Part shown: one piece after another, positions 903-60,148 of the stretch | How positions within the stretch are numbered: the first letter of the stretch is position 1 | How the letters are laid out: each line of letters opens with the position of its first letter | NCBI GenBank assembly: GCA_000002445.1 | Contig: AE017150.2 | Coordinates: 96,001 to 160,000 of the forward strand | Length of the DNA stretch: 64,000 bases | Direction: 5' to 3' | DNA from: Trypanosoma brucei | Taxonomy: Eukaryota | Notes under the pieces: model-generated | The model's database searches: none | Told to the model about the DNA's origin: nothing | What the model saw: the letters and a program-made list of their open reading frames with translations, nothing else | Program-made: the position numbers and the translations under genes

Positions 903-1150
903 TAGACGAGGTCATGACCACTCCACTGCTGCCGTTACATATGATCACTGCATGGTTTTCGTATCAATGTTGATGATGATATGGGATTTGCTGCTGGAGG
1001 CAACCAACAACATAAGTTTAAGGTTCCCACGTGTGGAGAGAGGCCTAACTGCCAACCCTCAACCAGGATAACAGAAGTGATTATAAGGAAAGAGAAGACA
1101 ACATATCATAGCATGTTTGCACACCGACAAATAATTGAAGAAAGAGAGTA

Positions 1151-1170
1151 AAAGAGAGAGAGAGAGAGAG
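1151..1170. repeat. (GA)n microsatellite (paralogous GA-rich tract at 11771..11802)
   Basis: agagagagagagagagag seen directly. The copy in the second repeat unit is longer and interrupted. Confidence 0.8.
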
Positions 1171-8738: not shown

Positions 8739-8769
8739 AAGCGGAAGTGTCTGAAAGCGTCTTTAACTC
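8739..8769 (+). other. Conserved ~29-nt motif AAGCGGAAGTGTCTGAAAG(C/T)GTC(T/C)TTAAC, copy 1
   Basis: 27 of 29 nt are identical to 40530..40558, and the surrounding sequences are unrelated. A poly(A) tract follows at 9096..9118. Confidence 0.5.
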
Positions 8770-9763
8770 ATCTCCTGTGCGGGGCGAAGAGGGTTGTGTT
8801 GTGTGGACTTTCTAAAAATTTCACTCCCTTGCAGACAGCTGCGTAAATAAACGGGGAGTACAGGTGTGTTTATAAAAAGATAACCGTACAAAATAATACT
8901 CTGCACTCCTAAGTCCAAAACAACCATTCGTAATGCAGGCTTTCAAAATACACGACATCATCTCAACAAATTGTAATTTTTTTTTGTATAATGTCCTCCA
9001 GAAGACGGAACAACAGATGACACAGTTAAATAACACATGACAAACAAGGAATATAACCGCACATCCTCAGCAGTAAATGTTTCAGTTTCTCCTTTAAAAA
9101 AAAAAAAAAAGAAAAATAAAACAGTTTCACACGTGTGGTCCAAAAGCTGCATCAGCCAATACAATATCTTGACAGCTTGTCACGCAGTATTGCCTCAAGA
9201 AGAAAATAAAACATTCATCTCTGCTTTCCGTTAATTGATAAATGAGATCCCATGCTGTGTTAACTCCCGTCTCCATTCAAATAGTTGACTCAACGTTATG
9301 ACGAGGCAGTGACCAAAAACAATCCAAATGCAATTCTAAATTTCTTCATATTACGTTTTCAGTTTTATTACACATTTCCCCAACCATTCCGAGTACTAAC
9401 AGGAATAATTTGGTTCTATAATAATGCATGTGTTTTCTACAACCCTTTCATTTTGTTATGATCCGCACAAAAATTATATATGTGGTTGTTGATTCGTCCT
9501 GTCAATCAAAGTAATATAATAATTAATTTTCCCCTTTTCTTCATTTTTTCTATTAGCACATGTGCACCTTGGTGAGATCACTTTCACTCATTTGCACTGA
9601 TTGGTCAACACTATTTAGTTCGTTATTCAACACACTCCCTTACATGTCCTCTTCTCACCATTTATAACCCACACGAGCAGCATCAAATATAAATTGTGAA
9701 GAGGTATGAGATCACAAGGAGCTCGCTCTCATTGAGAAGGTTGGATGCGTCATATATATATAA

Positions 9764-11533
9764 TCATGTAATCCCTTTCCATTTCAACAATACGCAAACC
9801 TCAACTGCGGAATCGACTTTGAATGAGTTGACCTCGTCAGCATGAAACGGGGCCCGCCAAGTGGCATGAACATTAATCTTATCAGTAAACATGTGTTTGA
9901 GGTGTTGGTAATAAATGGGGTCAAATAAAACATAAGTGCGTATCATCTCCCCCGTTATGCCCGAGTGGAAAATATACATCATCTCCTTGAATATAATTGT
10001 ATCCATGTTGTATCAATTCCTCATTCAGCTCTTCATCCTTATCGGTACCCAAAGGCATTGCCATCGCCTAACTTTTCCGTGAATGCACTCACGCCTTTAA
10101 GCTAACGAGTTCCAGCAACTTTCCATCTGTCATACGGCTCGGGAATCCATGAGAATTTATGATCATATCTGTGCAAATGCCTTTACTCATTGAAGGGCAT
10201 GTTAACACACCATCAGTGATGAGATCCACTACTCCCTCCAGCCCGTGCCGTGAGGAAAACTTATTTCAGACCTCGGGACCGCGAACTTCTCTCGTAGCAA
10301 CTTTAACTTTATTGTTATACATTCATCGATATATCCGAGTCACTGGAAGGTGAGAGATGACCACATTTGGTTCACAACAGCAGGCTGAGGGTATTTATTA
10401 TATTCAAGAAAATTAGGTCTTGGTTTCATGGAAGGCACGGGAGTGTATTTGTTTACAAAAATATCAAACTGACAAACAGCCGCACCTTTACTACTGGCAA
10501 TACCATCACTACTAAAGGCATTGTGTCTCGCAACATTTCAATCTGTTGGAAGAATTATATCATACATACTCACCGTTGGGAAGTCTTTCCAGTTCCATCT
10601 CATGCTTACAAAAAACAACACGCCACCCATAGCCACAATTGAGCGAACTGCGGTTGTGTACACCTTTGAGTCTTCAATATTGTAACCTCTATAGCTCATA
10701 ATGCATACCATCGTATTAATTCCTGCGCCTAATATTTTGTAGTTGCTTAGGTTCATAGCCTTCGTCCAGCAAAGGGATCGTTGAGAGTAAGCACTCAACA
10801 TAAGTACTGTGCCCATTTCTAATGTACTGAATATACGCAATGGTTCCAACAGCTTGCTTGCCCATGGCTGACTGTAATGTGTTTCGTGCAAATTGATTGT
10901 GATGTGTAAAGGAGAATAATGCTAGCGGCAACTCCAAGTGAGTCTCGTGTACTGCTCAATGTCTCTATGGTGAACTGCTAAAAGACAGACATTCGCTTCG
11001 TCATATAAGTCAATGAATTCCACAACAAACCTTCAGCTAAAATATCGTTAATCGAGCACTTGCCTGAACTCAAGTTATCCAGGTGTTGAGAAATTACAGC
11101 GTGTTTCCCATCGCGAACAAAAACATACAACCTCACGATCCTTCTGCCAACACAAACAATTTGAACACTCTTCTGACGGTCATTTATCGCAATTGAAACG
11201 TAAGGATGCAAGCGGCCTGTGTTCCTCAGGGTTCGTAATACATCCCGACACAAACGGCTCATGTATCGATAAACGCACATCAGCACTTCATTGAGGAAAA
11301 CTGTGTAGTATTTAAGAAATTCGTTAAGGCTGATATAATCTATTTCCTCCACTCCAATATTGTACGCATCCGCATGTAAACAAATTATCCATGTCGAGTG
11401 TTACCTGACTAAGAATAGCAAAATTATTAACCAAACAGCAACAACTTTCACCCTCTGGGGTATCGCAAAGAGGGATATACACCATTCCCCATTGACTTGA
11501 ATAGAGACATAATGATCCGCACATGTGGGTCAA
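9764..11533 (-). pseudogene. Unidentified degenerate pseudogene immediately downstream (3') of RHS #2; a related copy sits at 1..902
   Basis: A chain of minus-strand ORF pieces (9764..10006, 10538..10891, 10716..10937, 10978..11352, 11324..11533) in alternating frames. They include hydrophobic segments (AVRSIVAMGGVLFFVSMRW). The same pieces recur downstream of RHS #1. Confidence 0.3.
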
Positions 11534-12731
11534 TAGACGAGGCCATGGTCACTCCACTGCTGCCGTTACATATGATCACTGCATGATTTTCGTATCAATG
11601 TTGATGATGATGTGGGATTTGCTGCTGGAGGCAACCAACAACACAAGTTTAAGGTTCCCACGTGTGGAGAGAGGCCCAACTGCCAACCCTCAACCAGGAT
11701 AACAGAAGTGATTATAAGGAAAGAGAAGACAACATATCATAGCATGTTTGCACACCGACAAATAATTGAAGAAAGAAAGAGAGGGAGAGAGAGAGAGAGA
11801 GGAAAATGGACACAATCACGTCACCAGCTGCGTGTCTGCGAAGAACACCATCAAGAGCTACTCCATAACTCTAATCATAACTAACATGTATAATATAATT
11901 ATAACAGCTCGTATATAAAACAGCACATCCAGTAACTGCTTCTAATGTTTGCATATTTCACTCCGTCACAATCTCTCTCCCATGACACCTACTGGAAATA
12001 CAACTCAGAGGGGCTATATTTGAGGCATGTTTCCAATACGCTCTCTCCACCACGGATGGCAAAGAAGCAAAAAGTACTATTACATTTTTGTTCCTTTTAT
12101 CATTGGCCTATAGATCCCTATCTCTACACGGATGGAAAATTTAGACTGTATAAATGAAAAGAAGATGTGAAGAGTTAGTGTAGTATAATCCAATCCTATA
12201 GTTTGTAATAGCACAAATGAAAACAAAACGTCACAATGTTTTCTTACGTCCGTCGATAACATTATTTCTGTCTTTCTCTGTGCCCCTTAAGATTACGATG
12301 TGGCTTAACTCCAGTTACGCGGTAGCCGATAAAATACTACTTTTACTATTCCTTAGTCGTCTTCATTTCCACTTCCCTTCCCTCACCTCCGGCACTCAAG
12401 TGAATTACCACGTCCCTTTCCTGCACTAACCGCCGCATTCGACTGCTTGTTGAAAAGAATAAGATGATTACTACAGCCGCTATTTGCTGAATATTACTCC
12501 CTTGCAGCGCATCTTGTCATCCTAAGCATTAAGACAAAGCCACTTACCCTGTTTTGGCAGTTAGGACTGCTGGCCTCCCTATGATACGATAACTCAATTT
12601 TACATTAAATGAAAAAACGCCGACTAGCCCCACATTAGCACCGTACACTGTTGACTGCTTGCGTTCACCATAACATACCAGGCCGGATATTTTTACCCAG
12701 CTTCCACCACACCTAATGCTATGAAATCGTC

Positions 12732-15269
12732 TCACCCTCCTTGCGCTCCCGCTTGCTCGTTGCGTGGCTGCGGCGCAGGCTCCATGGCCAGAAGTGGAGC
12801 ATCCCGATACCAACATTCATCTCTATATGCTCGCATTAGCTGCCCCTGCATTTCTTCCCTTAACGTTACTTGGTATTGAGCCATGTTTCTCCACATATCT
12901 GCCGCTTCGGCGGGGTCGTCGCCATCACAAAGTTGCCTGATGGTTATCGTGCCACCGTTAACCGAATTAATGTATATCATCTCCCAAACCATGTCGCGGG
13001 AAAACGCACCCCAATCAGAAAAATATCTTGCCATGTTTTCTCGGAACTTCTGCACCTTATCCGTAGTGGTGGGGTGCCTGTCCGACTTGGTTACTTGTAA
13101 AAGCACAGCTATATTTGGAGTGGTCGGTGGCGCTGCTCCGTCAGGGGCTCTCCTGAGCCGCCCCTCAACGAAAAAAAAGCCATCCACCACGGGTTCATTG
13201 CCTGTGGCAGGGCGGTAGAGAACCATGTATTCACAATTATCAATTGGTCGCTGGTGGGCCGCAGGTAAGGCCTTCTGCCCAGTGAGTTTCAACTGCTGAG
13301 GAGCCATGTCGTTCAGTATGCTTCGACGGTCAGCTATTTCTCCGCCTCGTCGCAGGTATTTCAAGTTGTCTGCGATAACTTTAAAAACTCGAGGAAAAAG
13401 AAGCGAAAGCAACGCCCTTGATTCAAACACGTTGGCTGCGGCACTCTCGTCTGACATCGTAACTTGACGGATAGCCATTTTCTCCACATCAATGGCAAGC
13501 AGTTTGAAAAATATAGCATTCCCAATGCAAACCGAAAGTGGCCGGCAGCGGTATTCATCGACGCTCTCTCCGGCATCTCGCACACGGACGATTTTCACTA
13601 ACCTGTGCGTTACCTTATCATTTCGCCAATCGGCAATTTTCCCCATTATGTCCTCGTAGTGACTTTTGTTGTCACCATTGATGGACGTTATCATCTTTTT
13701 TGCCTGAGACACACGTTTTGTGTACCCCGCGCTGTTGTAAACGCAACGAGGCACTGGCCCAACCACATTAATACGGCTCTTTATTGTTTCCCACTCATTT
13801 TTAAGTTCTTCTACAATCCTCGCCTGAGCTTCTTCATCAAGTGCCGCATAGCCTGATGCTACAGACAGCTTAGTCCATGCCACAAATGCCTTCATGTCAC
13901 GCACATCATCACAGTTTATAATAATTCCTACGTCTCTCTTGTCTTTTGACCAGTGATGAAAATGGGCCTCATCCGGAGAAGTGAGGAGAGTTACACCCCA
14001 AGCGTGAACCGGCAGACCATCGGGTGGCGTCTGCGCATTCTTGCATATGTCAACAATGATGTGCCCTTTTTTTTTCTTGAATACTAACGCAGCTATGACC
14101 CTAACAGCAGCTTTCACGTCTTCATATTGCTCAACCTTCCCCCCTTCTCCGGGTTTCTTGTTATATATTAAATAGGCTATTTTACCCACGAAATATGCAA
14201 CAACATCAAGCATTCCATCATTGAAGTGAAGCAATGAATGAAGCAAAAATGATCCAACACCATATGATTTACCAATACCAGGTGTACCAATAACAATATG
14301 TCTCGGTGTTATCTCAGCTTTTTCCACCCACCTTCCTTGCAGCCCTCGTTGGATTATATACCACACGCGCATAATTTCACGACGGATATATACATGCTTA
14401 AAATTTTCCAAGCATATCTCAGCGTCATCCAATGCAAACCCGTTGTATGGCCAACCCTTCTCCGAAGTGAGAACAAAAATCTCCAAACCATCAGGCCTCT
14501 CCTCAATCTCTGCATCAACATTCGCAGGGTCAGGAGTTATATCCACCTCCGCTTCGGTCCATATGCACTGTGGTTTTCCATCAAACACTTTCATGCCAAG
14601 TGGCTCTTCATTATAACCCGACATTACATAACTCCATTTCGCATTATATATGGATTCATACACTCCTTCAAGTTCGACAGCACCACCAGCTGTTTGGGCA
14701 GCTCGCTTTTCCGCTCTCTTGGCGACCTCCAGTGCTCCATCCAACCTTCCCCTCGCCATGGGACCAACAAATTCTCTTATTTCCCCTCTTCCCTTCTCCT
14801 CCCACTGACTGAGGTAGTAAATTTCTTTTTCGTCAAGGTACCTTGCTTTCCGCTTCATTTCAGAGAATTGGTTATATAATTCTTTATATTCCTCAAACTG
14901 ATAAAGCCGCCGTATCCTTCCTAGAATCCCGGCATCCAAAATATAATCCTCCGGGCTCTGGACAAACACATCCATGGCCACATTCTCTGTGTCATACGTG
15001 TTAAAAAACTTTTTCAGCAAAAAGTCATGCAGTGTCATATCCCTCAAACCCTCATAGCGTTGCAGCAATACATCTTCAATAGAACTGTTCATTGTCCAAT
15101 TGGGCCCCTCTTCAGTTCTCTGCCGTATTTGTGGAGGCTGAGCAGCAGCAGCAGCAGGAGGCGGTACATTTTCATCCCGTGGCCTCCTCATGGCTGCTTC
15201 AATATTATCTGCCACTTGTTGATTTTCATTATTTCCTTGTGGAGCTGCGGGACTATTTGCTCTTGACAT
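12732..15269 (-). CDS. RHS: Retrotransposon hot spot (RHS) protein, apparently full length (845 aa), P-loop GTPGIGKS
   Basis: Long ORF collinear with RHS #1, with identical N- and C-terminal blocks and a mosaic-divergent central region. There is no RIME at the hot spot. Confidence 0.88.
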   Translation of the reverse strand: MSRANSPAAPQGNNENQQVADNIEAAMRRPRDENVPPPAAAAAQPPQIRQRTEEGPNWTMNSSIEDVLLQRYEGLRDMTLHDFLLKKFFNTYDTENVAMDVFVQSPEDYILDAGILGRIRRLYQFEEYKELYNQFSEMKRKARYLDEKEIYYLSQWEEKGRGEIREFVGPMARGRLDGALEVAKRAEKRAAQTAGGAVELEGVYESIYNAKWSYVMSGYNEEPLGMKVFDGKPQCIWTEAEVDITPDPANVDAEIEERPDGLEIFVLTSEKGWPYNGFALDDAEICLENFKHVYIRREIMRVWYIIQRGLQGRWVEKAEITPRHIVIGTPGIGKSYGVGSFLLHSLLHFNDGMLDVVAYFVGKIAYLIYNKKPGEGGKVEQYEDVKAAVRVIAALVFKKKKGHIIVDICKNAQTPPDGLPVHAWGVTLLTSPDEAHFHHWSKDKRDVGIIINCDDVRDMKAFVAWTKLSVASGYAALDEEAQARIVEELKNEWETIKSRINVVGPVPRCVYNSAGYTKRVSQAKKMITSINGDNKSHYEDIMGKIADWRNDKVTHRLVKIVRVRDAGESVDEYRCRPLSVCIGNAIFFKLLAIDVEKMAIRQVTMSDESAAANVFESRALLSLLFPRVFKVIADNLKYLRRGGEIADRRSILNDMAPQQLKLTGQKALPAAHQRPIDNCEYMVLYRPATGNEPVVDGFFFVEGRLRRAPDGAAPPTTPNIAVLLQVTKSDRHPTTTDKVQKFRENMARYFSDWGAFSRDMVWEMIYINSVNGGTITIRQLCDGDDPAEAADMWRNMAQYQVTLREEMQGQLMRAYRDECWYRDAPLLAMEPAPQPRNEQAGAQGG

Positions 15270-18250
15270 AACTCTCTTAATATTATTAACTTAACTTCCT
15301 TTCCTTTTCTTTTTTCTCTGAAATTATAAAAAACTGAAGTAAAATAATAGATAAGAAAACAATAGCGGGTGAACAGTGTAACATAATATCAAATGTAATA
15401 AAGCGCGTTAATGTTTATTCACTATAGTTTGTATAATATGATATCATAATGTATTTGGTATTGAGGGGAACAATTTCAAAATATAGCAGCTGTAAATAAA
15501 TATTTCCCTTGCTTCATTATCATGTGCTAAATATAATTAATTTCCTGTATCATTTCTTTCTAAACCATATATAATATGGAAACAAAAAATATTACTGCCT
15601 CATATACCTGCGTAAACACTTCGTATATATAATCAATATTTAAAGAGAGTCAAATTCTATTAATTAAAATCAAGTAAAACAATAAACAATAAAAATATAT
15701 GGATATTAATGAAACGAAGAAATAGAGTATCGGCACAACACATAGATATACACACACACGAATACGCACTACACTACACAACTGTTCCACTGGAGTTTCC
15801 TCACTTCTGTCAATACGTAACATTCACTTGCATTGAATAAACTCATTGAAAATATAAATCACTTATCCCCTCCCCCGTGTATTCACTTACTTCCAAAGGA
15901 GAATATTAAATAATGTCTGTAGGACAGGTAAAAAAAAACTGATAGTCTTTTTGCATCAGATAACCAGAGAGTATTTCTGTTTACTTTCATAATAAATAAA
16001 AACATTCTTTCACCTTCAGTTAAAATAAAATTTAATTACTTGCCTCCTCATTGTTCACAACTATCAACAACTAATTCAGCGACACAAATTCACATGTATC
16101 TGATGTGCCATCGTTGTTGAATCCATTCACACACCTTTTATGATGGTGATTATACAACATATGGAAAATAATTGGAATAAAATTAATACAATTAATTGAG
16201 GAAACCGTAAAAGATTATCATAACATATCTTTTATTTTCCCTCCTTTCATTTACACAGATTAAATATGTAATGAGACAATTCCCTTTCAGTACGTGTCCA
16301 CACTTATTGTATCATCATTGTAAGTTTCCTATTGCTCACATACACAAAGTTATTGGAATAACAAAAACACAAAACAACACATCTAAAGAACTTGAAAATG
16401 TATAACAAATAAAGGTAATAAAGAGAATAAGCGTGAACTGACAGATAATAAAATGAAACACGTCTCGCATTTTCCTTCTAAATATTCAATAGTTGGCGGA
16501 TTACAAAACAATTACACATTATAGAAAGGAAGGAATATAATTACATTATACACCTGCATGTGGATATGTAACAGTGAGTCATAGTAGAGATGAATTGCCT
16601 AAACACGATAGTTATGGAAGATAACATAATTCAAAATATCAAAAATATTATTCTATCAAAATTCCCTTCCTTCTCCATTAAGTTTTCAAATGGTTTCAAA
16701 TAATAATTCACATAATTCCATACATATGTTATGATGGGTATTGCATGCAGTACAATTTAAAGGAAGTGCAACTCATATAACATTTTCAAAAATAGGTATT
16801 GAATAGTTGTTTGCTACCATCAATTACATTTCCAACGCCTGATTACACTTTTATATGCATGAAGGAAGTTACTGATGATAACTTTGACATGCTCGAGAAT
16901 CCATAACACAAAGCAGCAGCTGCATGCAATAAAAAATATAAATATAAATAACATCCGAATTTATTTACTGACAGATGAGTGCAATCCATTCATTCAAACT
17001 TCATAGCTGCAAATATAAACTCGCTGCTGCCAATAGGAAATAATCCCGCATAAATATTGAGTATCTGAAAATGATAGCAACGGGTTTCCATTATTGAAAT
17101 ATATACATAAACTACATGAGGTATATGAAGCCATATTGGTAAAGTGTCACTACGCATGTTGCAATTTACTATCAAAAGTGTCTGCCTTATTTTATTTCTT
17201 GTGTTACTGTAACTCATGAGTATCATTCATTATTCTTTACAATACAACTGTAAGTCATTTTGCATTTTTACATATTTCCTTATTCCCTCATACTGGAAGT
17301 ATTCCACATATGAGATTCCTCAATATCGTTCACAAAATAAAAATAATTTCATTTCCTTCTGCATTCAGTTTCTCGTGTAGCAGTGTGTACACTAATCATC
17401 CATAAAGTTTTTAATTTGCCAAATACATCATTAAGAAACTATTTTCATACACACACATACACAAACAAACAAATCATTGGGACAATATCTTTGAGGAATT
17501 TCCTTCACTATATTTGCAGTTCAGTAGTAATTAAAATACACTTTTCTGTATAATTCAACACATGGTGGAATTGCAAAGAAATGTGATGGTACTTATAATC
17601 CATAAGTTCCCAATTTTCCTCATACGGTCTCTTTTCATGCCTTTACATCCTTATATAATTCACAGAGAATTACTGCAATTTCTTTCATATGCTTTCAGGA
17701 TTCCATATGTCACAATACAAATTATATATATATATATATATATATCCTCTTACATAAGTTGCACATAATATTGCTTAACATATAAATTATCACAAACCTA
17801 TGACTTTACACTCCTCCTAAGAATAAGAATCAAATTATTTCTATTTTGCATCATTACATGAAGCTTTGGAAAAGGAAAAAAAAAGAATCAAACAAAAGGT
17901 AATGTAAAGAAAATAGTTTTTTAATACAGAATATAACTTGTTTGTGAATTTCAGATGCAAACACAAAATGTTCAAACAGTAAAACAGTAAAGGACGTTAC
18001 TGGTGATGTAAGCACAAATTAATCAAAAATAGAAACATAAATAAAATTGAAACTTATAAAAACACAAATATATATGACACAAATATTTACCACATATTAT
18101 AATTCGCCACCCTCACACTTGAATTACAAAGAGTACATAACACACATATGTGGTAAAACTAATACAACTCGAATATACATATGTGCCACCTTCTTAACAT
18201 AATCATTCTAATATTTACTCAGTGTGTGTGTGTGTAGTGATGATGATATG
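15270..18250. repeat. Conserved AT-rich RHS upstream region, copy 2
   Basis: Aligns with 4587..7556 and 48774..51730. Confidence 0.8.
17724..17745. repeat. (TA)11 microsatellite in the RHS upstream region
   Basis: tatatatatatatatatatata seen directly. Paralogous positions (~7673..7690, ~51220) carry shorter tracts. Confidence 0.8.
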
Positions 18251-24200: not shown

Positions 24201-24244
24201 ACAAGATAACTTTCTTGATGAATTTCATTCATGATCGCACGCGT

Positions 24245-26599
24245 ATGCCGGCTGACGAAGCACAGCAAGCTCCACCACCTCTCCCAATTACCTTTACGAC
24301 GCCAACACTTTTCCTGTTGCTGTTAGTGTTACTTCAACTTTATCAAATATGTGTTATTTTTAACGCAGATGACAGTGGGAAAGTTACGGTGAAGGCAATA
24401 TCTCTGTTATACAGTCGAAAATGGGACCTACAAGTTATCAATGCCGTGAATGCCGGTTTCAATGCCTCCCTGGCTGCTCGGAACTGGACGGTGGCACTCG
24501 GGGTGAATGTTGAAGTTGCCCGCTCCCCCTCATACGGCATCAATTTGGTCCAGTTTCTGAATGATTACCCGAAGGCACTAAATGGCGATGACGCGAACGA
24601 GCTGTACAATACATCAGAAGGGAACCAACTTGTTGGATTCGGTCCCATGACTGAGTATCGACAGGGCATGAGGGATACCTGCCGCATTTTTGCTTCCTGC
24701 TCCTTGGGGCCACTGGCGAACTTATTACCCCAGTACGTTATGCGATGAGTCACTTACGTGTGCTAAAGCAGGGTTTCATGTATCTTGATGGGCTCCCGGG
24801 AGGTAGTGAGGCATATAATCAGGCAGTGGATTTCATATGGCGCATGGGGTACAGTTTCTGTTGTGTTTTCACGGTGGAGGACAAAGCGGGTGGCCAAGGT
24901 GGATCACCTGAGGAATTCGACGCCGTATGGGATGAGTTTGCTGGGGGAAATCCACAGGCTGTGACTATGTTTGCCGCCATGAAGCCTGATGCCAAAAAAA
25001 TTCTCGTGAGGTTGGTGTCTGATCCGCGTACGGAAGATACGTTCATGCCAACTCCGATCTTATTGCAGAAATCAATCGTGCGCATCTGGAAAGAGACATT
25101 GGAGGAAGCGAATGTTCCGTTTGTTCCCCATCGTGTGATTCAGACGGGGTCAAATCCTCTCGCTGAGGAAGATTATATCGACGCGGTAAAACGCTTTCAG
25201 ACTGAAATGAGGAACTATTTGACTGAATACAGGGAGTGGAGTGACTTCAATGATGCGGATCACTTTCTAAAGAGTGACGCGGATGGGGAGCTGACGATCA
25301 ATGGCTGGATTACTGGAGAGGTGTTGGCGCGGGCACTGCGTAGTCATGGCTGGATGAAAAATCGCACAGCCGTCATTGAGTCGCCGTTATGTGATTGATG
25401 GCATCGTGATCGGTGATTTTGGAGGTGAGTGCGATAGCTTTACCACTGCAAATGATGCCACTTGCCGCTGCAACCGTGGCAGGAAGAACGTCTACATGAG
25501 GGAGATTGCTGAAAATTACCGCCTGCAACCGCTTGTTGGCAGGCATATTATGACAACTTCCTTACAGTGTTATATCGACCCCTCGTTCCTATAGACACCA
25601 CTCATCGGCCTCATCGTTGATATGGAAGATCACGAAGAGCTTCTGAGAGAGGTTCCACACAGTTTGAAACTGGTGTGTCCACCACGACCGCATCTGGGAA
25701 AGTTGGCGAGATGAACAGTTCCTTCCTTCAGAGGATTGCCACAGATACGCACAAGGTTTCCAACGAGCTCAACACATTGCGGCAGGAAAGGATAGTCACT
25801 GCCGTGTTTGGCATCGTAACAAAAGCGGTGCTCGGTCTGACATTCATTGACCCTATGACACCAATCCCCCATCTGAACAGTTTCAGCAGGAATGTGATCC
25901 ACTTGTCCCCAACAATGGAACAGCAGCTATACATGTTAGCGAGCTCCCTCTCCAGCATTCGTGCTGACTTCCACCAATTGCGTTGTAAGGGGCGGTGAGG
26001 CGTCCGCTTTCATTGATGCGCTAAGAAAGGCACTGCTCACATTTGGCTTGAACCTCAGCTCTACCGTTGTGTTGACTGCAGGGGACTCTGTTGGAGAGTA
26101 TCTTTCGAAAAGTGGTAGCACTTTTATCATTGGACTTGCTGTTGATGGCATTGTGGTAATTGAAGAGCATCTACGTATCCGCAACAAGGTGCGCGTATTT
26201 GTCCAGTTCTCTGGCATTGCGCTGCTGTAAAATGAGTTTGTGCAAGCCTTCGACAATAGCGATGGCACCAAGCACCTTTTGTTCGCAACAAGTTTGCTTT
26301 GCTACCCAGACATCAACACGACATCGTAGACTGTGCAACGGTTCCACGAGGCGGTACGTGAGGTGGAAAAGTGGACGCCGCTGTCGGTGCTGGGTTTCGC
26401 CACGGGTAGACTAATACAAGAGAATCTGCAAAACATGGAAAGGGTAACGTCCGGCCTGCTGGTCGACCTTTTCTTCAACCAAACAGTAATCATCATTGAT
26501 GGCATGCGTTATATGGGCCGTACAAACATTATGATTGCATAATCAACGTTGTCGTTACCGCTGATGATTGCATGTCAAACTTCGGTGCTACGGATATAA

Positions 26600-26679
<80 letters not shown>

Positions 26680-27192
26680 TCAGTGGGACGTCCGCTACGG
26701 TCAGATGCACCAATACTACAGAATCCGATGTCGCCGTCGTTGATGTGCGCTGTCCCCAACGGTAATGCCCTCACCCCCGCACAAGTTGCTGGTGTGGTTG
26801 ATGACTCTTTATTCGTTGTGGCTCTCGCAATATGTCTAAGCTTACTTGCGTGATTCCCTCTCCGGGGCACCCGTGATGACGACAGCGCGCCGAAGGAATC
26901 AACGGACCCTGTGACACTAATATTTACTGACATTGATAGCAGGACTGCGTTGTGGGCTGCACACCCTGATCTGATGGCTGATGCCGTTGCAACACATCAC
27001 CGTCTGATTCGTTCACTGATTGGGAGGTATGACTGCTACGAGGTGAAAACTGTTGGTGATTTGTTCACAATAGTGAGCAAGAGTCCCTTCGCTGCCGTAC
27101 ACCTCGCACAGAAACTACAGCTGTGTTTCTTGCATCATTCCTTCCGAAGGGGTTGCACAATTTCTAACAGCGCCGAATGGACAAATGCATAA
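24245..27192 (+). pseudogene. GRESAG4: Receptor-type adenylate cyclase (ESAG4/GRESAG4 family) pseudogene; frameshifted, interrupted by (TG)n, truncated inside the catalytic domain
   Basis: The ORF 26911..27192 translates to VTLIFTDIDSRTALWAAHPDLMADAVATHHRLIRSLIGRYDCYEVKTVGDLFTIVSKSPFAAVHLAQKLQLCFLHH. From my memory of trypanosome receptor adenylate cyclases, this matches the start of the class III cyclase catalytic domain, including its TLIFTDIESST...YEVKTVGDSFMIASK motif. Upstream pieces in three frames (24134..24748, 24745..25398, 25376..25594, 25961..26230, 26333..26542) fit the large extracellular domain. An N-terminal hydrophobic signal-like stretch follows the ATG at 24245. The reading frame ends at ...AEWTNA, with no remainder of the catalytic domain. 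Confidence 0.8.
26602..26678. repeat. (TG)~38 microsatellite inside the adenylate cyclase pseudogene
   Basis: Seen directly. The paralogous tract at 60118..60147 is only ~(TG)15. Confidence 0.9.
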
Positions 27193-29269
27193 TATTACGG
27201 AGCGTTGCTTATGCACACAGCTTATATAATGTCACATGCGTTGTGATTTGTAGAGGGGAGTGGGCCACCAGAAATTGGGTCATTTTAATGTCAATAAGTT
27301 TTTACCGCTTCTTGGACCCGTCATTCCCCGCACTTAACCTTTTCGAACCGAGGAGTTGGTAAAAGACGGCCAAGCAACGGTATCGTCGACACCGTGGCCA
27401 TCAGTACGGGATTTTACATACGGTAACGAAGCGTGGGCATATGTTTTTCTTTAAACGTCATTTTTTAAATTTTTCTGTACATTGTTGCTGTCACTTCTAC
27501 GAAGTATGGCCAGAATGTTAGAGTAGTGCATTTGTGTGCAAAACGAAGAAAATAATACTCCCTTTGTTTTTCTTTCCCTCTTGGGTTGTATGAAAAGAGG
27601 GGACTCCTGTTTGTAGGATGACAAGAGCTGTTTTGTTTATTTCCTCAAAAAAATTGCATGCTCCATAGTTGCTCCAATATTCCCATCCCTTCATTGGAAA
27701 ATGACCCGTCGGCTCCGTCCATGTGAGTGAAGCGGTGGCCCTGATATTTGCCCTGATGCTTTTTCTTTTTTCCACCGTGAAACCTGCACTGCACTGCACT
27801 TGCGTTCCCTCATCCCCTCTTACAGTTATCCGTTTCACTTCCCCTGTTGAGGAATGCGTATTTCTAACCGTGCGAGATATCAAACAGTAAATCTGTCGGA
27901 CAAACAAAAGGCTGAGAAATTCGTCACATAAACTTATGAGCATTCACCACTGAGGCACGCACGCTCACCAACACCAACAAAGTCAAGCAAAAGGCGCTGC
28001 ATATTAATACTCAATGGCGCCATAATGTTCCCTTTCGTGTTCCCTTTTCCTTTTTCCTTCCGTTGGGGTTACACAACACTTGTGGGAACCCGCTTCACTT
28101 CGTCCTTTTCCAATTATGAAGGTAACTGTGTTTTGTTTGCCACACTTCCGCTTGTTATTTCTCCAACTGGTTTCACTTACAGAAGTCGCGTGTACACCAC
28201 TTGTGGAGGAAATATTACATTAGGCAAAACCAACAACGAAAAAAATGGCAATACATTCTAAAACATTCCCTCAACATTGCAGAACTCATGAAAGGAACCA
28301 TGGTTACTGCCACCAGGTTAAGCAAAGACCAAAAGGCTTTTGAAATGTGTTTTCGAATCGAATGTACCACTGGTATTTCTTTAACATGCAAACACAACAC
28401 AAATCACGGCATGCACAAACACGAGTGCCAAGCTTCTTATAGAGATATTTCAATACCTGAAAAAAGGGACCGGGACGCAAAGTTTGGGAATGGAATTTCC
28501 CCGCCCGTAACGGTGATCATCTAAGACATTCAATCAACACATTTCCGCCTGTCCACAGTTAATCGGAAACCGTAGTGCCCATATGTCTCCCTAATTACTG
28601 TTGTCCCTTCAGTTTTCACAGTAGATGTTTCAATTGGTTTCTGTGGCCGAGGTAAATAAAGCGTATGTGTCATATCCGGGAGGTGTTTTCATGTGTCTTC
28701 TCTTTCCGTTTTGTCACTGCGTTTGGGCTCACGCAGTGACATTAATTGAAAATTTAGGCCACTACCATAGATGGGTGGCTCGTGGAGAGAGTGAGGATTG
28801 GGATTATTCTAACAGCTTTGTGGTTGTGTGTGCTGTGCTTTTGGAAAATATTGCAGCCAATGAAAGGGAAGGCAAGTGTCACCTTGCTTTCCATGCTGCG
28901 ACATCAATGCATAAGAATTATATGCTAGTTGCTCTGCAAGGGAAGGTCGTGAAGGCGAAGGTTAGCTTCCGGTTTAAGGAAGTGCAGAGACTTCCTGATA
29001 CTACTGTCAGAAACTACTGTTGCTGCGTGCTCCAGGCACTGGGTCAGTAATTCATAAATACAACAACGAGAATAAAATTAATCCCTTGTGGCTGCTAAGC
29101 GTGCAAGCAACTGAGAATAATAAACAGTATATTTTTGCCACACTTTATTGATTTCTATATATATACAAAACAACCTCATTACAATTATCATTTCTTTTGT
29201 CCCCAAAGACTGCTGAATGAAGGTTAGGATTACTGACCATAACACATTTTGGCATGCACCTCAATTACT

Positions 29270-29378
29270 TCCTTATAACACTCCCCCCATTTGATTCATC
29301 GCTTAGCTCTATTATTAAAAAAAGAAAAAGCATTTCCTCAACACTCAGCACCTCAAGGAATCGGAAACGGGAACTATA
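29270..29378 (+). promoter_or_regulatory. Pyrimidine-rich tract plus AG dinucleotides upstream of the LRRP ATG; candidate trans-splice acceptor region
   Basis: cttccttataacactccccccatttgattcatcgcttagctct...cctcaacactcag is followed by the ATG at 29379. Trypanosome mRNAs are trans-spliced at an AG downstream of a polypyrimidine tract. Confidence 0.3.
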
Positions 29379-32300
29379 ATGTCAGGAAACCAAGGAAGAA
29401 AGCGACAGTGCATCTCATCACCTGAGCAGTCAGAAGCTTTAAAGGAATCATCAACTACTGGACAAAATAAACTCACCACCGTTACAATCACCGAAGAGAC
29501 GCGTGACGCCAGTAATGATGAAACTGTGGTATCATTACTGAATGAGCATGAGAAATTGATTAAACAAACGACACGGCTGGAAAGCAGTGTGAAGGCACTT
29601 AGGTGTCTCATGAGTAATCTCACAGCTATGAGTGGCGAAAGGCAAGGTGGTGTGTGTGATGACACCGAATGCATACATAGAGTAACATTATATAATGCTG
29701 CTGATAATGCCTTCAGTGACGAAGGACTATATGAAGGTGCTCTTTCCTCACTCCGTGGCCGCATTCATACCAAGAAATTAACCATCACGTTATCAAAGGG
29801 TTGGAAATTTAACTTAGAACGAGTCAGTAAGCTAAAACAGTTAGAAGAGTTACGCATTGAATATCCGCGGGGCAAACTTGTGAATATGATATCTTTGAAG
29901 AGACTGCACATGTTGAAAAGGCTTTGTTTCAGGAGCAACAATATTGACAACAATGACGCCCGTCACTTATTCAATATTGTAACATTGGAAGAGTTGGCTA
30001 TTACTGACACCATGCAACTGACAAATATCAGAGGAATCTCTCGCTTGACTAACCTGAAGTGTCTTGAGTTAAATTCCACAGATATTGATGATAGCTGTAT
30101 AGGGGAAATAAGCGCATGTGCTAAACTGTCCAAATTGAGTGTATCCGAATGCAACAATATCACGGATGCAACCCCAATTTCACAACTTGCAGCACTGGAA
30201 GAGTTGAATCTAAACAGCTGTTACCACATAACGAAGGGAATAGAAACACTTGGCATGTTGTTGCGACTGCGTATGCTTGACTTGAGTGGTGTTCCTGTGG
30301 AAGATAATTGTCTGAAGGATTTGTGTGACTGTGGATCGCTTGAAAGGCTGAACATTTCTTATTGTATTCAGCTGACAGATATCAATCCACTCTCCAATGC
30401 CACTGCTATTGAGGAATTGAACCTTAACGGTTGTCGCCGAATAACACGAGGGATAGGCGTTGTGTGGGCATTACCAAAGCTCCGTGTATTGCACATGAAG
30501 GATGTGCACCTGAGCGAGCCATCTCTCGATTCAGTTGGAACTGGTGGATCACTTGTAAGGCTCAGTCTTGAGAATTGCAAAGGGTTTGGTGATGTCAAGC
30601 CCCTCTCGAACCTTGTTACACTTGAGGAACTGAATCTCCACTACTGTGACAAAGTAACCTCTGGAATGGGAACACTGGGCAGGCTACCGCAGCTTCGTGT
30701 ACTGGATTTGGGACGGACACAAGTTGATAATAATTCCCTTGAGAATATCTGCACAAGCTCAATCCCACTTGTGTCATTAAATCTTTCGCATTGCAAGAAA
30801 ATAACATCTATTTCTGCAATAGCTTCCCTTACAGCATTGGAGGAACTCAACATTGACAACTCCTGTAATGTAACATCCGGCTGGAATGTATTTGGTACAC
30901 TTCACCAACTGCGTGTAGCCACACTGTCGAATACACGCATTAATGATGAAAACATACGGCACGTTAGCGAGTGCAAGTCTTTGAATACACTCAACCTTGC
31001 GTTTTGCAAAGATATAACAGACGTCACAGCACTTTCTAAAATTACTATGCTTGAGGAGTTGAACCTTGATTGCTGCCCTAACATCAGAAAAGGTATTGAA
31101 ACTCTTGGAAAGCTTCCCAAGGCACGTATCCTAAGCATGAAGGAATGTTACATGGGAGACGGATATGCGCAACAATGTTCCATCCTTGGGAATAGTAAGT
31201 CACTTGTGAAACTGAATCTTGAGAGGTCAATGGGATTCATATCTGTGAAAGCTCTCTCTAACATTGCGACGTTGGAGGAATTGGTACTTGATCATGCAGA
31301 GGAAGTATGTTGCATACCGTCATTTTCCTGTCTACCGCGCCTTCGAGTACTGAATCTGAAATATACGGACATTAATGGTGATGTAACTAAAAATATTTCC
31401 GAATCGAAATCGCTGCGATCACTCAACTTATCACATTGCAAATGGGTAACCGATATATCAGTATTATCTTCCTTATCGACACTGGAAGAACTGAATGTTA
31501 ACTGCTGCAACGGAATACGAAAAGGCTGGGAGTCGCTCGGAAAGCTGCCTCTACTACGTGTAGCAATTCTATCTGATACTAACATCGCCGCTAAAGATAT
31601 AGCTTGCCTTAGCAGTTGCAAAACGCTGGTGAAACTAAAGTTTTTCCGGTGTGAGAAGTTGTCAGATGTTACGGTGGTGTATAAAATTCAATCACTGGAG
31701 GAACTGATAGTTAGGAGCTGTTCAGACGGCCTCAAGGGACTAAATGACCTTGGTACACTGCCACGGTTGCGTTTTTTGCTTCTGCGAAATGTGAGAGGTA
31801 GTGATATATCTGTTGAATCTATTGGGACGAGCAAATCTCTCGTGAGGCTTCATATTGAAATGCGCAAGGAGTTAACAGACATAACACCCCTCTCCAACAT
31901 CACGTCCCTTGAGGAATTGTCATTGCGGGAATGCGGTGATAACCTGGAAGGAGTCGGGACACTTGGGAAACTGCCACGGCTTAAATCGCTGGATCTCGGT
32001 TTATCTGACATTAGCAATAGCGCACTTAATGATATTTTTCTCTCTCGATCCATTACGTCACTCAACCTAGCCTCCAGTTGGAAACTAACAGACATATCTC
32101 ATATATCAAACCTTACGGCACTGGAGGAATTGAATCTGAGAAGATGTTACCCCATAACTTCAGGCTGGGAAGCACTAAGCGAATTACCACGACTTCGTGT
32201 GCTCAACTTGGAATCCGCCAGTGTCACGACCCGTTACGATGGATATTATATCAGCAGATGCAAATCCCTCGTCACACTCAACCTTGAATCGTGTGATATG

Positions 32301-32711
32301 ACCGATGCTTCATGTCTTGCTAATATCAAGACACTGGAGGAGTTGCATATAGGGAGATGCAAAGAGCTAAGGCGGGGGTTTAGTCCACTTTTCACTCTTC
32401 CGCGGTTGCGCATTCTTAACTTGATTTGTTCTCTCATTAAAGATGAAGATCTCAGGGAAATTCAACCACCCCATACCATTGAGGAGCTCAATCTCTCTTA
32501 TTGTGAAAATCTTAATGATATCACACCACTTGGGAGAATAAAATCAATTAAAAAATTGCATCTCCGTCAGAGCCATGATGCCAGAAGGCCTACAGAAGGA
32601 TTCAGAAGTCTTTTGGAATTGCCATGTCTTTCTTGGGTTGACCTAAACAACGTGTGTGGCTGGTCCGATGTTTATGTTGAACTGAGAAAGAGGAGGGTAT
32701 ATATCCGTTAA
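29379..32711 (+). CDS. LRRP: Leucine-rich repeat protein (LRRP, ESAG8-related), 1110 aa: ~170-aa N-terminal region followed by ~35 cysteine-containing LRR units
   Basis: Uninterrupted ORF with a regular ~23-25 aa periodicity (L..LEELNL..C..ITD...LS.L..L). Paralogous partial copy at 62854..64000. No RING finger is visible, so it is LRRP-type rather than ESAG8 proper. Confidence 0.85.
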   Translation: MSGNQGRKRQCISSPEQSEALKESSTTGQNKLTTVTITEETRDASNDETVVSLLNEHEKLIKQTTRLESSVKALRCLMSNLTAMSGERQGGVCDDTECIHRVTLYNAADNAFSDEGLYEGALSSLRGRIHTKKLTITLSKGWKFNLERVSKLKQLEELRIEYPRGKLVNMISLKRLHMLKRLCFRSNNIDNNDARHLFNIVTLEELAITDTMQLTNIRGISRLTNLKCLELNSTDIDDSCIGEISACAKLSKLSVSECNNITDATPISQLAALEELNLNSCYHITKGIETLGMLLRLRMLDLSGVPVEDNCLKDLCDCGSLERLNISYCIQLTDINPLSNATAIEELNLNGCRRITRGIGVVWALPKLRVLHMKDVHLSEPSLDSVGTGGSLVRLSLENCKGFGDVKPLSNLVTLEELNLHYCDKVTSGMGTLGRLPQLRVLDLGRTQVDNNSLENICTSSIPLVSLNLSHCKKITSISAIASLTALEELNIDNSCNVTSGWNVFGTLHQLRVATLSNTRINDENIRHVSECKSLNTLNLAFCKDITDVTALSKITMLEELNLDCCPNIRKGIETLGKLPKARILSMKECYMGDGYAQQCSILGNSKSLVKLNLERSMGFISVKALSNIATLEELVLDHAEEVCCIPSFSCLPRLRVLNLKYTDINGDVTKNISESKSLRSLNLSHCKWVTDISVLSSLSTLEELNVNCCNGIRKGWESLGKLPLLRVAILSDTNIAAKDIACLSSCKTLVKLKFFRCEKLSDVTVVYKIQSLEELIVRSCSDGLKGLNDLGTLPRLRFLLLRNVRGSDISVESIGTSKSLVRLHIEMRKELTDITPLSNITSLEELSLRECGDNLEGVGTLGKLPRLKSLDLGLSDISNSALNDIFLSRSITSLNLASSWKLTDISHISNLTALEELNLRRCYPITSGWEALSELPRLRVLNLESASVTTRYDGYYISRCKSLVTLNLESCDMTDASCLANIKTLEELHIGRCKELRRGFSPLFTLPRLRILNLICSLIKDEDLREIQPPHTIEELNLSYCENLNDITPLGRIKSIKKLHLRQSHDARRPTEGFRSLLELPCLSWVDLNNVCGWSDVYVELRKRRVYIR

Positions 32712-46166: not shown

Positions 46167-46178
46167 TGTATAACAGTA
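46167..46178. repeat. 12-bp target-site duplication TGTATAACAGTA (minus strand TACTGTTATACA), copy 1 of 4
   Basis: The identical 12-mer occurs at 46167..46178, 46683..46694, 47203..47214 and 47717..47728, immediately flanking each RIME. Confidence 0.85.
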
Positions 46179-46682: not shown

Positions 46683-46694
46683 TGTATAACAGTA
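46683..46694. repeat. 12-bp TSD, copy 2 of 4
   Basis: As above. Confidence 0.85.

Positions 46695-60114: not shown

Positions 60115-60148
<34 letters not shown>

What the first reader, a model, noticed from the sequence alone, without database searches (positions are those of the whole stretch)
10639..32711. Nested segmental duplications: a 10.65 kb RHS tandem unit and a larger duplicon with an apparent ~33.5 kb period (RHS, ESAG4 pseudogene, LRRP)
Unit 1 (1..7556) and unit 2 (10639..~18250) are collinear. Unit 2 and unit 3 (from 47729 or 48774 to the window end) then stay collinear for a further ~14 kb, through the ESAG4-like pseudogene and into LRRP, with an offset of 33.48-33.50 kb. Unit 1 leaves the alignment at ~7556, next to a GT-rich tract, and is followed by ~2.2 kb of unique sequence. 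The region therefore records at least two duplication events with different breakpoints.
Basis: seen in the sequence. Interest (0 to 1): 0.5.

Follow-up and report, generated by a model that had tools for sequence, protein, structure and literature searches.

The report
Repeated RHS/LRRP gene blocks in trypanosome

Summary
A self-comparison shows long collinear same-strand matches: 1-7556 with 10636-18235 (offset 10.64-10.70 kb) and 14541-30525 with 48045-64000 (offset 33.47-33.51 kb). The second match runs to the window end.

The window is Trypanosoma brucei TREU927 chromosome 2, around Tb927.2.650 to Tb927.2.940. Its RHS, DUF1181 and LRRP genes are already annotated.

- **Two junction types exist,** so at least two rearrangements occurred.
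- **Identity does not rank their ages.** Every non-coding segment of every pair is 94-97% identical.
- **The "unique" 3.08 kb after 7556 is not unique.** It is 97% identical, junction included, to the spacer of a 10.57-kb RHS tandem unit on T. b. gambiense chromosome 11.
- **The two large copies are not sisters.** Copy 2 is closer to a T. b. equiperdum chromosome 1 copy (4.5% divergence) than to copy 3 (5.0%).
- **RHS coding regions and flanks have different histories.** Synonymous divergence in the coding regions is 0.3-1.2, against 0.05 in the flanks, which indicates mosaic recombination.

These are members of dispersed block families spread and scrambled by ectopic recombination. This is known biology and of low interest.

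The parts
1..1707 (-). Unit 1: 3' flank of RHS-A. It holds fragments of an RNA polymerase III RPC2 pseudogene, cut off by the window start.
   Evidence: 95.4-95.6% identical to 10636-12338. Pfam Rpb2 domain 4 at 454-753 and domain 6 at 2-286.
2073..4586 (-). RHS-A, an intact 837-aa retrotransposon hot spot gene (XP_951485.1). Its C-terminal part resembles RHS4.
   Evidence: Pfam RHSP, RHS_N and DUF7578. 100% identical to P0002 and 80% to the RHS4 protein P0007.
4587..7556 (.). Copy 1 of the AT-rich 3-kb RHS upstream flank. A TG-rich tract lies at 7507-7537, and the copy ends at the junction 7556/7557.
   Evidence: 94.6% identical to 15270-18235 and 95.0% to 48774-51742.
7557..10635 (-). Spacer X of the RHS tandem unit. 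The part 9767-10635 is the 3' portion of the RPC2 pseudogene that belongs to unit 2.
   Evidence: No match inside the window. 97.0% identical and contiguous in T. b. gambiense chromosome 11. Rpb2 domain 6 fragments at 9767-10265.
10636..12338 (-). Unit 2: 3' flank of RHS-B. With 9767-10635 it forms an RPC2 pseudogene spanning about 9767-11548.
   Evidence: Pfam Rpb2 domains 3, 4 and 6. The best match among solved structures is Pol III RPC2, E = 5.5e-48, against RPB2 at 1.8e-27.
12732..15269 (-). RHS-B, an intact 845-aa RHS gene (XP_951486.1). It clusters at 90% or more with a protein that its source names RHS4.
   Evidence: Only 62% amino-acid identity to RHS-A.
15270..18235 (.). Copy 2 of the RHS upstream flank. 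Here it is joined to the ESAG4/LRRP block.
18236..24124 (+). Left part of block E, copy 1. No family could be assigned. It holds the annotated 123-aa ORF Tb927.2.650 (22830-23201).
   Evidence: 94.1% identical to 51743-57639. The ORF is identified. No Pfam hits.
24125..27189 (+). ESAG4-type receptor adenylate cyclase pseudogene, copy 1. (TG)38 at 26603-26678 lies inside it.
   Evidence: PF25495, PF25493 and PF00211 occur in the right order, spread over two reading frames and broken by in-frame stops. 11 of 12 stop codons bounding these pieces are shared with copy 2.
28625..29050 (+). DUF1181 gene Tb927.2.680, 141 aa.
   Evidence: Full-length PF06680 match. Identified.
29379..32711 (+). LRRP copy 1, 1110 aa (XP_951489.1).
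   Evidence: Pfam LRR families. Exact match. The part 29379-30525 is 94.8% identical to 62854-64000.
37541..38050 (+). Short relic of an RHS6-type gene in the spacer between the two large copies.
   Evidence: tblastn gives 68-69% identity to RHS6a aa 191-361.
44725..46179 (-). RHS-C, 3' half of an RHS1-type pseudogene.
   Evidence: 96.7% identical to RHS1 Q8T9M3 aa 358-841. Pfam RHSP.
46167..47728 (-). Three tandem RIME retroposons, each with a poly(A) tail and each bounded by the 12-bp duplication TACTGTTATACA. They sit at the RHS hot spot.
   Evidence: Read directly from the sequence. Repeat units of 516-520 bp, 97-99% identical. The first 77 nt match 58-61 of 77 positions of the L1Tc Pr77 signature (PMC1874656).
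47729..48773 (-). RHS-C, 5' half. DNA similarity to RHS-A and RHS-B is found only from 48045 upward.
48774..51742 (.). Copy 3 of the RHS upstream flank, joined to block E copy 2.
51743..64000 (+). Block E copy 2. It holds ORF Tb927.2.900 (56344-56715), the ESAG4 pseudogene (about 57640-60658) with (TG)15 at 60118-60147, the DUF1181 ORF 62095-62457 (annotated from an internal ATG as the 98-aa Tb927.2.940), and the start of LRRP copy 2 (62854 onward, cut by the window end).
   Evidence: The LRRP start is 100% identical to P0127 aa 1-382 (1394 aa in full).

Best explanation
The window is part of the RHS/LRRP gene cluster on Trypanosoma brucei TREU927 chromosome 2. It is built from two kinds of reusable blocks that also occur on other chromosomes.

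- **Block R** is about 10.6 kb. In the RHS reading direction it holds a 3-kb upstream flank, an RHS gene, a fragment of a dead RNA polymerase III RPC2 gene, and a 2.2-kb spacer.
- **Block E** is at least 15.5 kb. It holds 5.9 kb of unassigned DNA, a dead ESAG4-type adenylate cyclase gene, a small DUF1181 gene, and an LRRP gene.
- **Order in the window:** R (cut by the window start), R, E, about 12 kb of other DNA, an RHS1 pseudogene with its flank, then E again.

Shown here: the blocks, their junctions, their copies elsewhere, and the absence of any sister relationship among the local copies.

Inferred: the blocks were spread and rearranged by unequal crossing-over and ectopic homologous recombination between non-allelic copies. 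They were then patched by gene conversion. That would explain why all copies are roughly equally diverged (about 5%) with mosaic site patterns, and why RHS coding regions of different subfamilies sit between nearly identical flanks.

Later local changes are insertion of RIME elements at the RHS hot spot, microsatellite length change, new stop codons in one ESAG4 pseudogene copy, and a change in LRR repeat number.
For: **Identity of the locus.** RHS-B, RHS-A, the LRRP and two small ORFs match annotated TREU927 chromosome 2 proteins exactly: XP_951485, XP_951486, XP_951487, XP_951488 and XP_951489, including Tb927.2.650 and Tb927.2.680.

**Repeats.**

**Block R recurs.** T. b. gambiense chromosome 11 has RHS, the RPC2 pseudogene, X, the flank and then another RHS, with 10,573 bp between RHS start codons. 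An 8.6-kb stretch there matches window 12422 down to 3846 without a break. X is 97.0% identical, and the sequence across 7556/7557 is the same.

**Block E recurs.**
- T. b. equiperdum chromosome 1 matches window 13865-30648 at 93.0% over 16.9 kb.
- Paralogues at 90% or more of its small ORFs lie on TREU927 chromosomes 1, 2 (three copies), 4 and 7, and on BAC N19B2.
- T. b. gambiense chromosome 9 carries the DUF1181-LRRP part alone.

**The local copies are not sisters.** Over 15,085 columns, copy 2 differs from copy 3 by 5.04% and from the chromosome 1 copy by 4.51%. Informative sites split 426, 345 and 326. Protein comparisons agree.

**Mosaic pattern.** In the flank shared by three copies, informative sites split 72/85/72 and their distribution along the sequence is heterogeneous (p = 0.003-0.005). 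RHS synonymous divergence is 0.33-0.58 overall and above 1 locally, against 0.05 in the flanks, with dN/dS about 0.2-0.7 in most segments (one short 60-codon block reaches 1.1).

**ESAG4 was already dead when copied.** 11 of 12 stops bounding its reading-frame pieces are shared. Copy 2 has 3 private nonsense codons.

**Literature.**
- RHS genes are a clustered subtelomeric family with a conserved N-terminus, a variable C-terminus and a retroelement hot spot (PMC6393297, PMC7563717).
- Chimeric pseudogenes are attributed to crossing-over upstream of that hot spot (PMC7563717).
- RHS, ESAG, VSG and LRRP genes are used together to define T. brucei subtelomeres (PMC5359979).
Against: - Recombination and gene conversion are inferred from patterns in the sequence. 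No event was observed.
- Only three outside loci could be fetched, and TREU927 itself was not retrievable, so the full set of copies and their tree are unknown.
- The excess of sites linking copy 2 to the equiperdum copy is modest (426 against 345).
- The primary papers describing this chromosome (El-Sayed 2003, Bringaud 2002) could not be read here. Whether these exact repeats were described in print rests on my memory and on the existing annotation.
Confidence: 0.85

Rival explanations
1. Two local duplications are nested in place: a 10.65-kb tandem RHS duplication and a separate 33.5-kb duplication. Each was followed only by point-mutation divergence, so identity gives their relative age.
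For: Long collinear diagonals at the two offsets and two different junctions of the same flank.
Against: - Non-coding identity is equal in both classes of repeat.
- The three flank copies are star-like and mosaic.
- Copy 2 is closer to a chromosome 1 copy in another subspecies than to copy 3.
- The 7556/7557 junction and spacer X also exist on T. b. gambiense chromosome 11.
- RHS coding regions are 6 to 20 times more diverged at synonymous sites than their flanks.
- The 12 kb between the large copies is not repeated.
Confidence: 0.08
2. The whole units were copied recently. That is why the flanks differ by only about 5%. Afterwards the RHS coding regions were overwritten by gene conversion from distant RHS paralogues. 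This differs from the alternative in which old copies had their flanks homogenised. It is a sub-variant of the best explanation and concerns the direction of conversion.
For: - RHS-A, RHS-B and RHS-C match different subfamilies: RHS4-like, RHS4 and RHS1.
- Boundaries between about 95% and 46-75% identity are sharp, at 1707/12338 and near the start codon.
- More than 100 potential RHS donor copies exist in the genome (PMC6393297).
Against: The same pattern arises if the flanks are homogenised and the coding regions are not. The two cannot be separated with three copies and no outgroup for the flanks.
Confidence: 0.4
3. The repeats are an assembly artefact, for example overlapping clones or two alleles laid end to end.
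For: Repeat-rich subtelomeric regions are prone to misassembly. This is general knowledge, not a result obtained here.
Against: - The copies differ by 3-6% and by many indels.
- They carry different RHS subfamilies, and RIME elements are present in only one.
- Microsatellite lengths differ, the LRRP lengths differ (1110 against 1394 aa), and there are private stop codons.
- Independent assemblies of two other subspecies show the same block structures.
Confidence: 0.02

Closest known systems
RHS (retrotransposon hot spot) gene clusters of Trypanosoma brucei (Bringaud et al. 2002, as summarised in PMC6393297 and PMC7563717)
   Same: - The genes carry the RHS_N and RHSP domains with a P-loop.
- The N-terminus is conserved and the C-terminus differs by subfamily.
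- RIME insertions lie five codons after the P-loop.
- The 5' and 3' halves of the RIME-disrupted pseudogene RHS-C resemble RHS1 unequally (80% against 96.7%), which fits a chimera.
- The genes are clustered in repeated subtelomeric or cluster DNA together with ESAG pseudogenes and LRRP genes.
   Different: Nothing essential. This is one of those clusters, in the reference strain. What I did not find stated in the papers I could read: the 10.6-kb unit containing an RPC2 pseudogene, and the contrast between 5% flank divergence and 0.3-1.2 synonymous divergence in the coding regions.
Subtelomeric segmental duplication families shaped by ectopic recombination, as in human and yeast subtelomeres and in T. 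cruzi RHS/TS regions (PMC7563717)
   Same: - Modular blocks are shared between non-homologous chromosomes.
- Copies are 90-97% identical.
- Identity patterns are mosaic.
- Pseudogenes are carried along as passengers.
   Different: Here the blocks flank strand-switch regions of polycistronic transcription units and include a site-specific retroposon target.
Simple tandem gene arrays of T. brucei (PMC1855330)
   Same: Head-to-tail repetition of an RHS-containing unit with a fixed period of about 10.6 kb.
   Different: Typical arrays hold near-identical coding regions that raise gene dosage. Here the coding regions are the most divergent part of the unit and the intergenic DNA is the most conserved.

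Membership tests
Segmental duplication (long, collinear, same-strand, 90% identity or more) | Long collinear matches far beyond chance | tested here: met
   Matches of 16.1 kb at 93.3%, 5.4 kb at 85% and 1.7 kb at 95.4%, all with E = 0.
Segmental duplication (long, collinear, same-strand, 90% identity or more) | The two local copies are each other's closest relatives, as expected for a recent local event | tested here: not met
   Copy 2 is nearer to the T. b. equiperdum chromosome 1 copy (4.51%) than to copy 3 (5.04%). The embedded ORFs are nearer to paralogues on chromosomes 1, 4 and 7.
True tandem repeat with a 10.65-kb period | The entire period is repeated head to tail | tested here: inconclusive
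   Within the window, 7557-10635 has no partner, because its partner would lie left of position 1. The RPC2 pseudogene crosses 10636. The same full unit, with a 10,573-bp period, exists on T. b. gambiense chromosome 11. Both points make a full tandem unit likely.
RHS multigene family | RHS_N and RHSP (P-loop) domains | tested here: met
   Pfam E-values range from 1e-33 to 1e-104 for all three genes. There are 100% matches to annotated RHS proteins.
RHS multigene family | Retroelement insertion at the hot spot, five codons downstream of the P-loop codons | tested here: met
   In RHS-C the sequence reads GTPGIGKS, then FSVGS, then TACTGTTATACA, then the RIME. The position is as described in PMC7563717.
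RIME (non-autonomous ingi-type retroposon) | About 500 bp long, the conserved 77-nt 5' signature, a poly(A) tail and a target-site duplication | tested here: met
   Units are 516-520 bp including the 12-bp duplication. The 5' end matches L1Tc Pr77 at 58-61 of 77 positions; the paper gives 76.6% similarity for ingi/RIME. The A-runs and the repeated TACTGTTATACA are visible in the sequence (PMC1874656). No comparison with a reference RIME sequence was possible.
ESAG4/GRESAG4 receptor adenylate cyclase (as a pseudogene) | An N-terminal pair of periplasmic-binding-like domains followed by the cyclase catalytic domain, with a disrupted reading frame | tested here: met
   PF25495, then PF25493, then PF00211, in that order and spread over two reading frames with in-frame stops. 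The disruptions are shared by both copies. I could not test whether it is nearer to ESAG4 or to GRESAG4, because the homologue search returned nothing at the threshold I set.
LRRP (T. brucei leucine-rich repeat protein) | A long LRR array and identity to annotated LRRP proteins | tested here: met

The most novel reading that the evidence does not exclude
The nearly identical flanks on either side of RHS genes are the 3-kb upstream flank and the downstream segment holding the RPC2 pseudogene. They might act as fixed homology arms that allow whole RHS coding cassettes of different subfamilies to be swapped between loci. That would be a dedicated diversification arrangement, loosely comparable to the conserved borders of VSG cassettes, and not a passive by-product of subtelomeric recombination.
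Probability: 0.12. Interest if true: 0.45.

Novelty: already known. Interest (0 to 1): 0.12.

Why it matters
There is little here beyond bookkeeping. The region is annotated in the reference genome, and the RHS/LRRP/ESAG clusters of T. brucei are a textbook example of recombination-prone repeated DNA.

The practical lesson concerns the scan. In a multi-copy family, local identity cannot date a duplication, and window edges can create apparent repeat boundaries and apparently "unique" sequence.

One point may deserve a specialist's glance. RHS coding regions are far more diverged than the non-coding DNA around them. That bears on how this large nuclear protein family diversifies.

Tried and rejected
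- **Extending the window.** The look-up of encoding contigs with five TREU927 proteins (RHS-A, RHS-B, P0001, the LRRP and P0127) and two small ORFs found nothing. TREU927 is not indexed, so I could not read the DNA beyond either window end.
- **ESAG4 homologue search.** The third homologue search, with the ESAG4 fragment, returned nothing because I set the E-value threshold too strictly for a database of that size. I mapped the pseudogene with Pfam on its reading-frame pieces instead.
- **Primary papers.** El-Sayed 2003, Bringaud 2002 and a PMC id guessed for one of the 2003 chromosome papers (El-Sayed or Hall) are not held. Several literature searches for RHS with LRRP and chromosome II found nothing specific.
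- **Unassigned regions.** Pfam on ORF pieces from 18.2-24.1 kb and 32.7-44.7 kb gave no assignment. A few pieces from these regions were scanned, which also gave the RPC2 hits. Rfam and the tRNA scan found nothing in the window.
- **Sensitive DNA search.** nhmmer found no hidden partner for spacer X or for the 12-kb spacer inside the window.
- **Positive selection.** I considered it as the cause of the divergent RHS N-terminus and rejected it. dN/dS is 0.2-0.7 in most segments (1.1 in one short 60-codon block), and synonymous divergence is itself high.
- **Assembly artefact.** Considered and rejected; see the rival explanations.
Full report

Yes. BLAST of the window against itself gives a handful of long same-strand diagonals and nothing else of note:
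- 1-1707 with 10636-12338, 95.4% identity.
- 2217-7518 with 12915-18235, 85% overall and 89.6% from 3154 onward.
- 3846-7555 with 48045-51742, 90.3%.
- 14541-30525 with 48045-64000, 93.3% over 16.1 kb.

The large pair has an offset of 33,504-33,505 until a (TG)n microsatellite, and 33,469-33,475 after it. The microsatellite has 38 repeats at 26603-26678 and 15 repeats at 60118-60147.

Unit 1 leaves both alignments exactly at 7556/7557. That is about 20 nt beyond a TG-rich tract present in all three copies.

Three details need correcting:
- DNA similarity of unit 3 begins at 48045.
- The stretch with no match in the window is 3,079 bp, not 2.2 kb.
- Both outer edges of the repeats (position 1 and position 64000) are set by the window, not by biology.

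**2. What is the sequence?**

RHS-B (12732-15269, minus strand) is 100% identical to a Trypanosoma brucei brucei TREU927 RHS protein on a 1,193,948-bp contig. From memory, that length is chromosome 2.

Exact look-ups give these identities:

| Window feature | Annotated protein |
|---|---|
| RHS-A | XP_951485 |
| RHS-B | XP_951486 |
| 123-aa ORF, 22830-23201 | Tb927.2.650 |
| DUF1181 ORF, 28625-29050 | Tb927.2.680 |
| LRRP, 29379-32711 | XP_951489 |
| 123-aa ORF, copy 2 | Tb927.2.900 |
| DUF1181 ORF, copy 2 | Tb927.2.940 |

The region is therefore already annotated. Pfam confirms the RHS domains in all three RHS genes and the LRR arrays in the LRRP.

The ESAG4-like pseudogene carries PF25495, PF25493 and the cyclase domain PF00211 in the right order. 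They are spread over two reading frames and separated by in-frame stops, with the (TG)n tract between the extracellular and catalytic parts.

The third RHS (44725-48773) is an RHS1-type pseudogene. Its 3' half is 96.7% identical to RHS1 Q8T9M3.

What looked like a 516-bp tandem repeat inside it is three RIME retroposons. Each starts with the conserved ingi/RIME 5' signature and ends in poly(A). Each is bounded by the 12-bp duplication TACTGTTATACA. They are inserted five codons after the P-loop. This is the classical RHS hot spot as described in PMC7563717 and PMC6393297.

Downstream of RHS-A and RHS-B lies a fragmented pseudogene of the second-largest subunit of RNA polymerase III. It runs from about 11548 to about 9767. 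It therefore crosses position 10636, the apparent left edge of unit 2. In unit 1 the same pseudogene is cut by the window start. The left edge of the 10.65-kb match is thus a window artefact.

**3. Does identity rank the duplications?**

No. Non-coding segments give the following:

| Pair and segment | Identity |
|---|---|
| Units 1-2, 3' flank | 95.6% |
| Units 1-2, 5' flank | 94.6% |
| Units 1-3, 5' flank | 95.0% |
| Units 2-3, 5' flank | 94.4% |
| Units 2-3, left part of block E | 94.1% |
| Units 2-3, ESAG4 pseudogene | 96.3% |
| Units 2-3, DUF1181 region | 96.7% |

The start of the LRRP coding region, compared in the same call, is 94.8% identical between units 2 and 3.

In the 2.93 kb shared by all three copies, the pairwise distances are 5.5, 5.0 and 5.5%. 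Sites supporting each of the three possible pairings number 72, 85 and 72. They occur in runs along the sequence (heterogeneity p = 0.003-0.005). That is a star-like, mosaic pattern, not a nested one.

**4. Coding regions and flanks have different histories.**

Between units 1 and 2 the flanks are about 95% identical, but the RHS coding region between them drops to 46-90% in patches. RHS-A and RHS-B share only 62% of amino acids.

Synonymous divergence among the three RHS N-terminal regions is 0.33-0.58 overall and above 1 in places. The adjacent flank stands at 0.05. dN/dS is about 0.2-0.7 in most segments, and reaches 1.1 only in one short 60-codon block. Fast protein evolution therefore cannot explain the gap.

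Either the coding segments were replaced from distant RHS paralogues, or the flanks were homogenised. Both are forms of gene conversion or ectopic recombination, which has been proposed for this family (PMC7563717).

**5. Copies elsewhere.**

*T. b. gambiense chromosome 11 (FN554974.1).* This locus carries RHS, the RPC2 pseudogene, a spacer, the flank, and then an RHS1 pseudogene with a RIME. The two RHS start codons are 10,573 bp apart. An 8.6-kb stretch matches window 12422 down to 3846 without interruption at 92.4%. Spacer X (7557-10635) is 97.0% identical there, and the sequence across 7556/7557 is the same.

*T. b. equiperdum chromosome 1 (CM010672.1).* This locus carries RHS, the flank, the 123-aa ORF, the ESAG4 pseudogene, DUF1181 and an LRRP. 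It matches window 13865-30648 at 93.0% over 16.9 kb, and 48517-64000 at 93.7%. Over 15,085 aligned columns the distances are:
- copy 2 to copy 3: 5.04%
- copy 2 to the chromosome 1 copy: 4.51%
- copy 3 to the chromosome 1 copy: 5.17%

Informative sites number 345 linking copies 2 and 3, 426 linking copy 2 to the chromosome 1 copy, and 326 linking copy 3 to it.

*Protein comparisons.* These agree. The copy 2 123-aa ORF differs at 4 of 123 positions from the chromosome 4 paralogue, but at 9 of 123 from window copy 1. The DUF1181 and LRRP N-termini behave the same way.

*T. b. gambiense chromosome 9.* This locus holds only the DUF1181-LRRP part, matching window 28709-33694 at 90-92%. This shows that the blocks are modular. 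It also shows that block E extends at least 1 kb past the LRRP stop codon.

**6. Age of the pseudogene.**

Eleven of the twelve stop codons that bound the Pfam-supported reading-frame pieces of the ESAG4 pseudogene are shared by both copies. Copy 2 has three further private nonsense codons and a few private frameshifting indels. The gene was already dead when the block was copied.

**7. Best explanation.**

The window shows two consecutive R blocks (the first cut by the window start), one E block, about 12 kb of unrelated DNA holding a short RHS6 relic, then an RHS1 pseudogene with its flank, and a second E block.

The same 3-kb flank is joined either to spacer X or to block E. Each junction type occurs in more than one genome location. 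The blocks, junctions and outside copies are shown directly.

The following is inferred from equal divergence, mosaic site patterns and the contrast between flanks and coding regions: the blocks spread by unequal crossing-over and ectopic recombination and were later patched by gene conversion.

An assembly artefact is excluded. The copies differ by 3-6% and in gene content, and two other subspecies assemblies show the same blocks.

**8. Comparison with what is known, and verdict.**

- RHS genes are a clustered, largely subtelomeric family of about 118 copies. They have a retroelement hot spot and many pseudogenes (PMC6393297).
- Recombination upstream of the hot spot has been proposed to create chimeric pseudogenes (PMC7563717).
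- RHS, ESAG, VSG and LRRP genes together are used to define T. brucei subtelomeres (PMC5359979).

From memory only, the papers on chromosomes I and II (Hall 2003, El-Sayed 2003) and Bringaud 2002 describe such repeated RHS/LRRP/ESAG-pseudogene regions. I could not open those papers.

The finding is a correct description of a known, annotated kind of region.

One feature might merit a specialist's attention: RHS coding regions are much more diverged than their surrounding non-coding DNA. A dedicated cassette-exchange arrangement is not excluded, but it is unlikely to be more than a by-product of recombination in a large gene family.

Noticed in passing
window 46167-47728 (minus strand): Three RIME retroposons lie in tandem inside an RHS1-type pseudogene, five codons after the P-loop. 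Each is followed by poly(A) and separated from the next by the same 12-bp duplication TACTGTTATACA. The copies are 97-99% identical. A single RIME sits at the same site in the related pseudogene on T. b. gambiense chromosome 11 (locus L002, 11028-11553).
   Followed up: yes
window 2-753 and about 9767-11548 (minus strand); also L003 13923-14665: A fragmented pseudogene of the RNA polymerase III second-largest subunit (RPC2) lies downstream of RHS-A, of RHS-B and of an RHS gene on T. b. gambiense chromosome 11. Only about residues 500-1110 are covered. It appears to be a fixed passenger of the 10.6-kb RHS unit.
   Followed up: partly
window 2073-4586, 12732-15269 and 47729-48773, compared with flanks 4587-7556, 15270-18235 and 48774-51742: RHS coding regions are much more diverged (synonymous divergence 0.33-0.58, locally above 1) than the non-coding DNA next to them (0.05). 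The transitions are sharp, near the start codon and at 1707/12338.
   Followed up: partly
window 26603-26678 and 60118-60147: A (TG)n microsatellite lies inside the ESAG4 pseudogene, between its extracellular and catalytic parts. It has 38 repeats in copy 1 and 15 in copy 2, which explains the change in offset between the copies.
   Followed up: yes
window 29379-32711, compared with 62854 onward (P0127): The two LRRP copies differ in length, 1110 against 1394 aa. The alignment shifts register by about 284 residues within the LRR array. Identity is 92% over the first 382 residues and 79% after that.
   Followed up: partly
window 37541-38050 (plus strand): An isolated 170-residue relic of an RHS6-type gene lies in the opposite orientation to the other RHS genes. 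It has no N-terminal part, no recognisable continuation and no copy of the RHS upstream flank.
   Followed up: partly
window 18236-24124 (and its copy 51743-57639); window 38100-44700: Several kilobases have no assignable gene, domain, RNA family or repeat. The first stretch is nevertheless conserved at 94% between copies and at about 93% in T. b. equiperdum chromosome 1. It holds the annotated 123-aa ORF Tb927.2.650/2.900, which has paralogues at 90% or more on chromosomes 1, 2 and 4.
   Followed up: partly
window 57640-60658: Copy 2 of the ESAG4 pseudogene has three private nonsense codons: TGG to TAG at 58353 and 58821, and GAG to TAG at 58449. These come on top of the disruptions it shares with copy 1.
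   Followed up: yes
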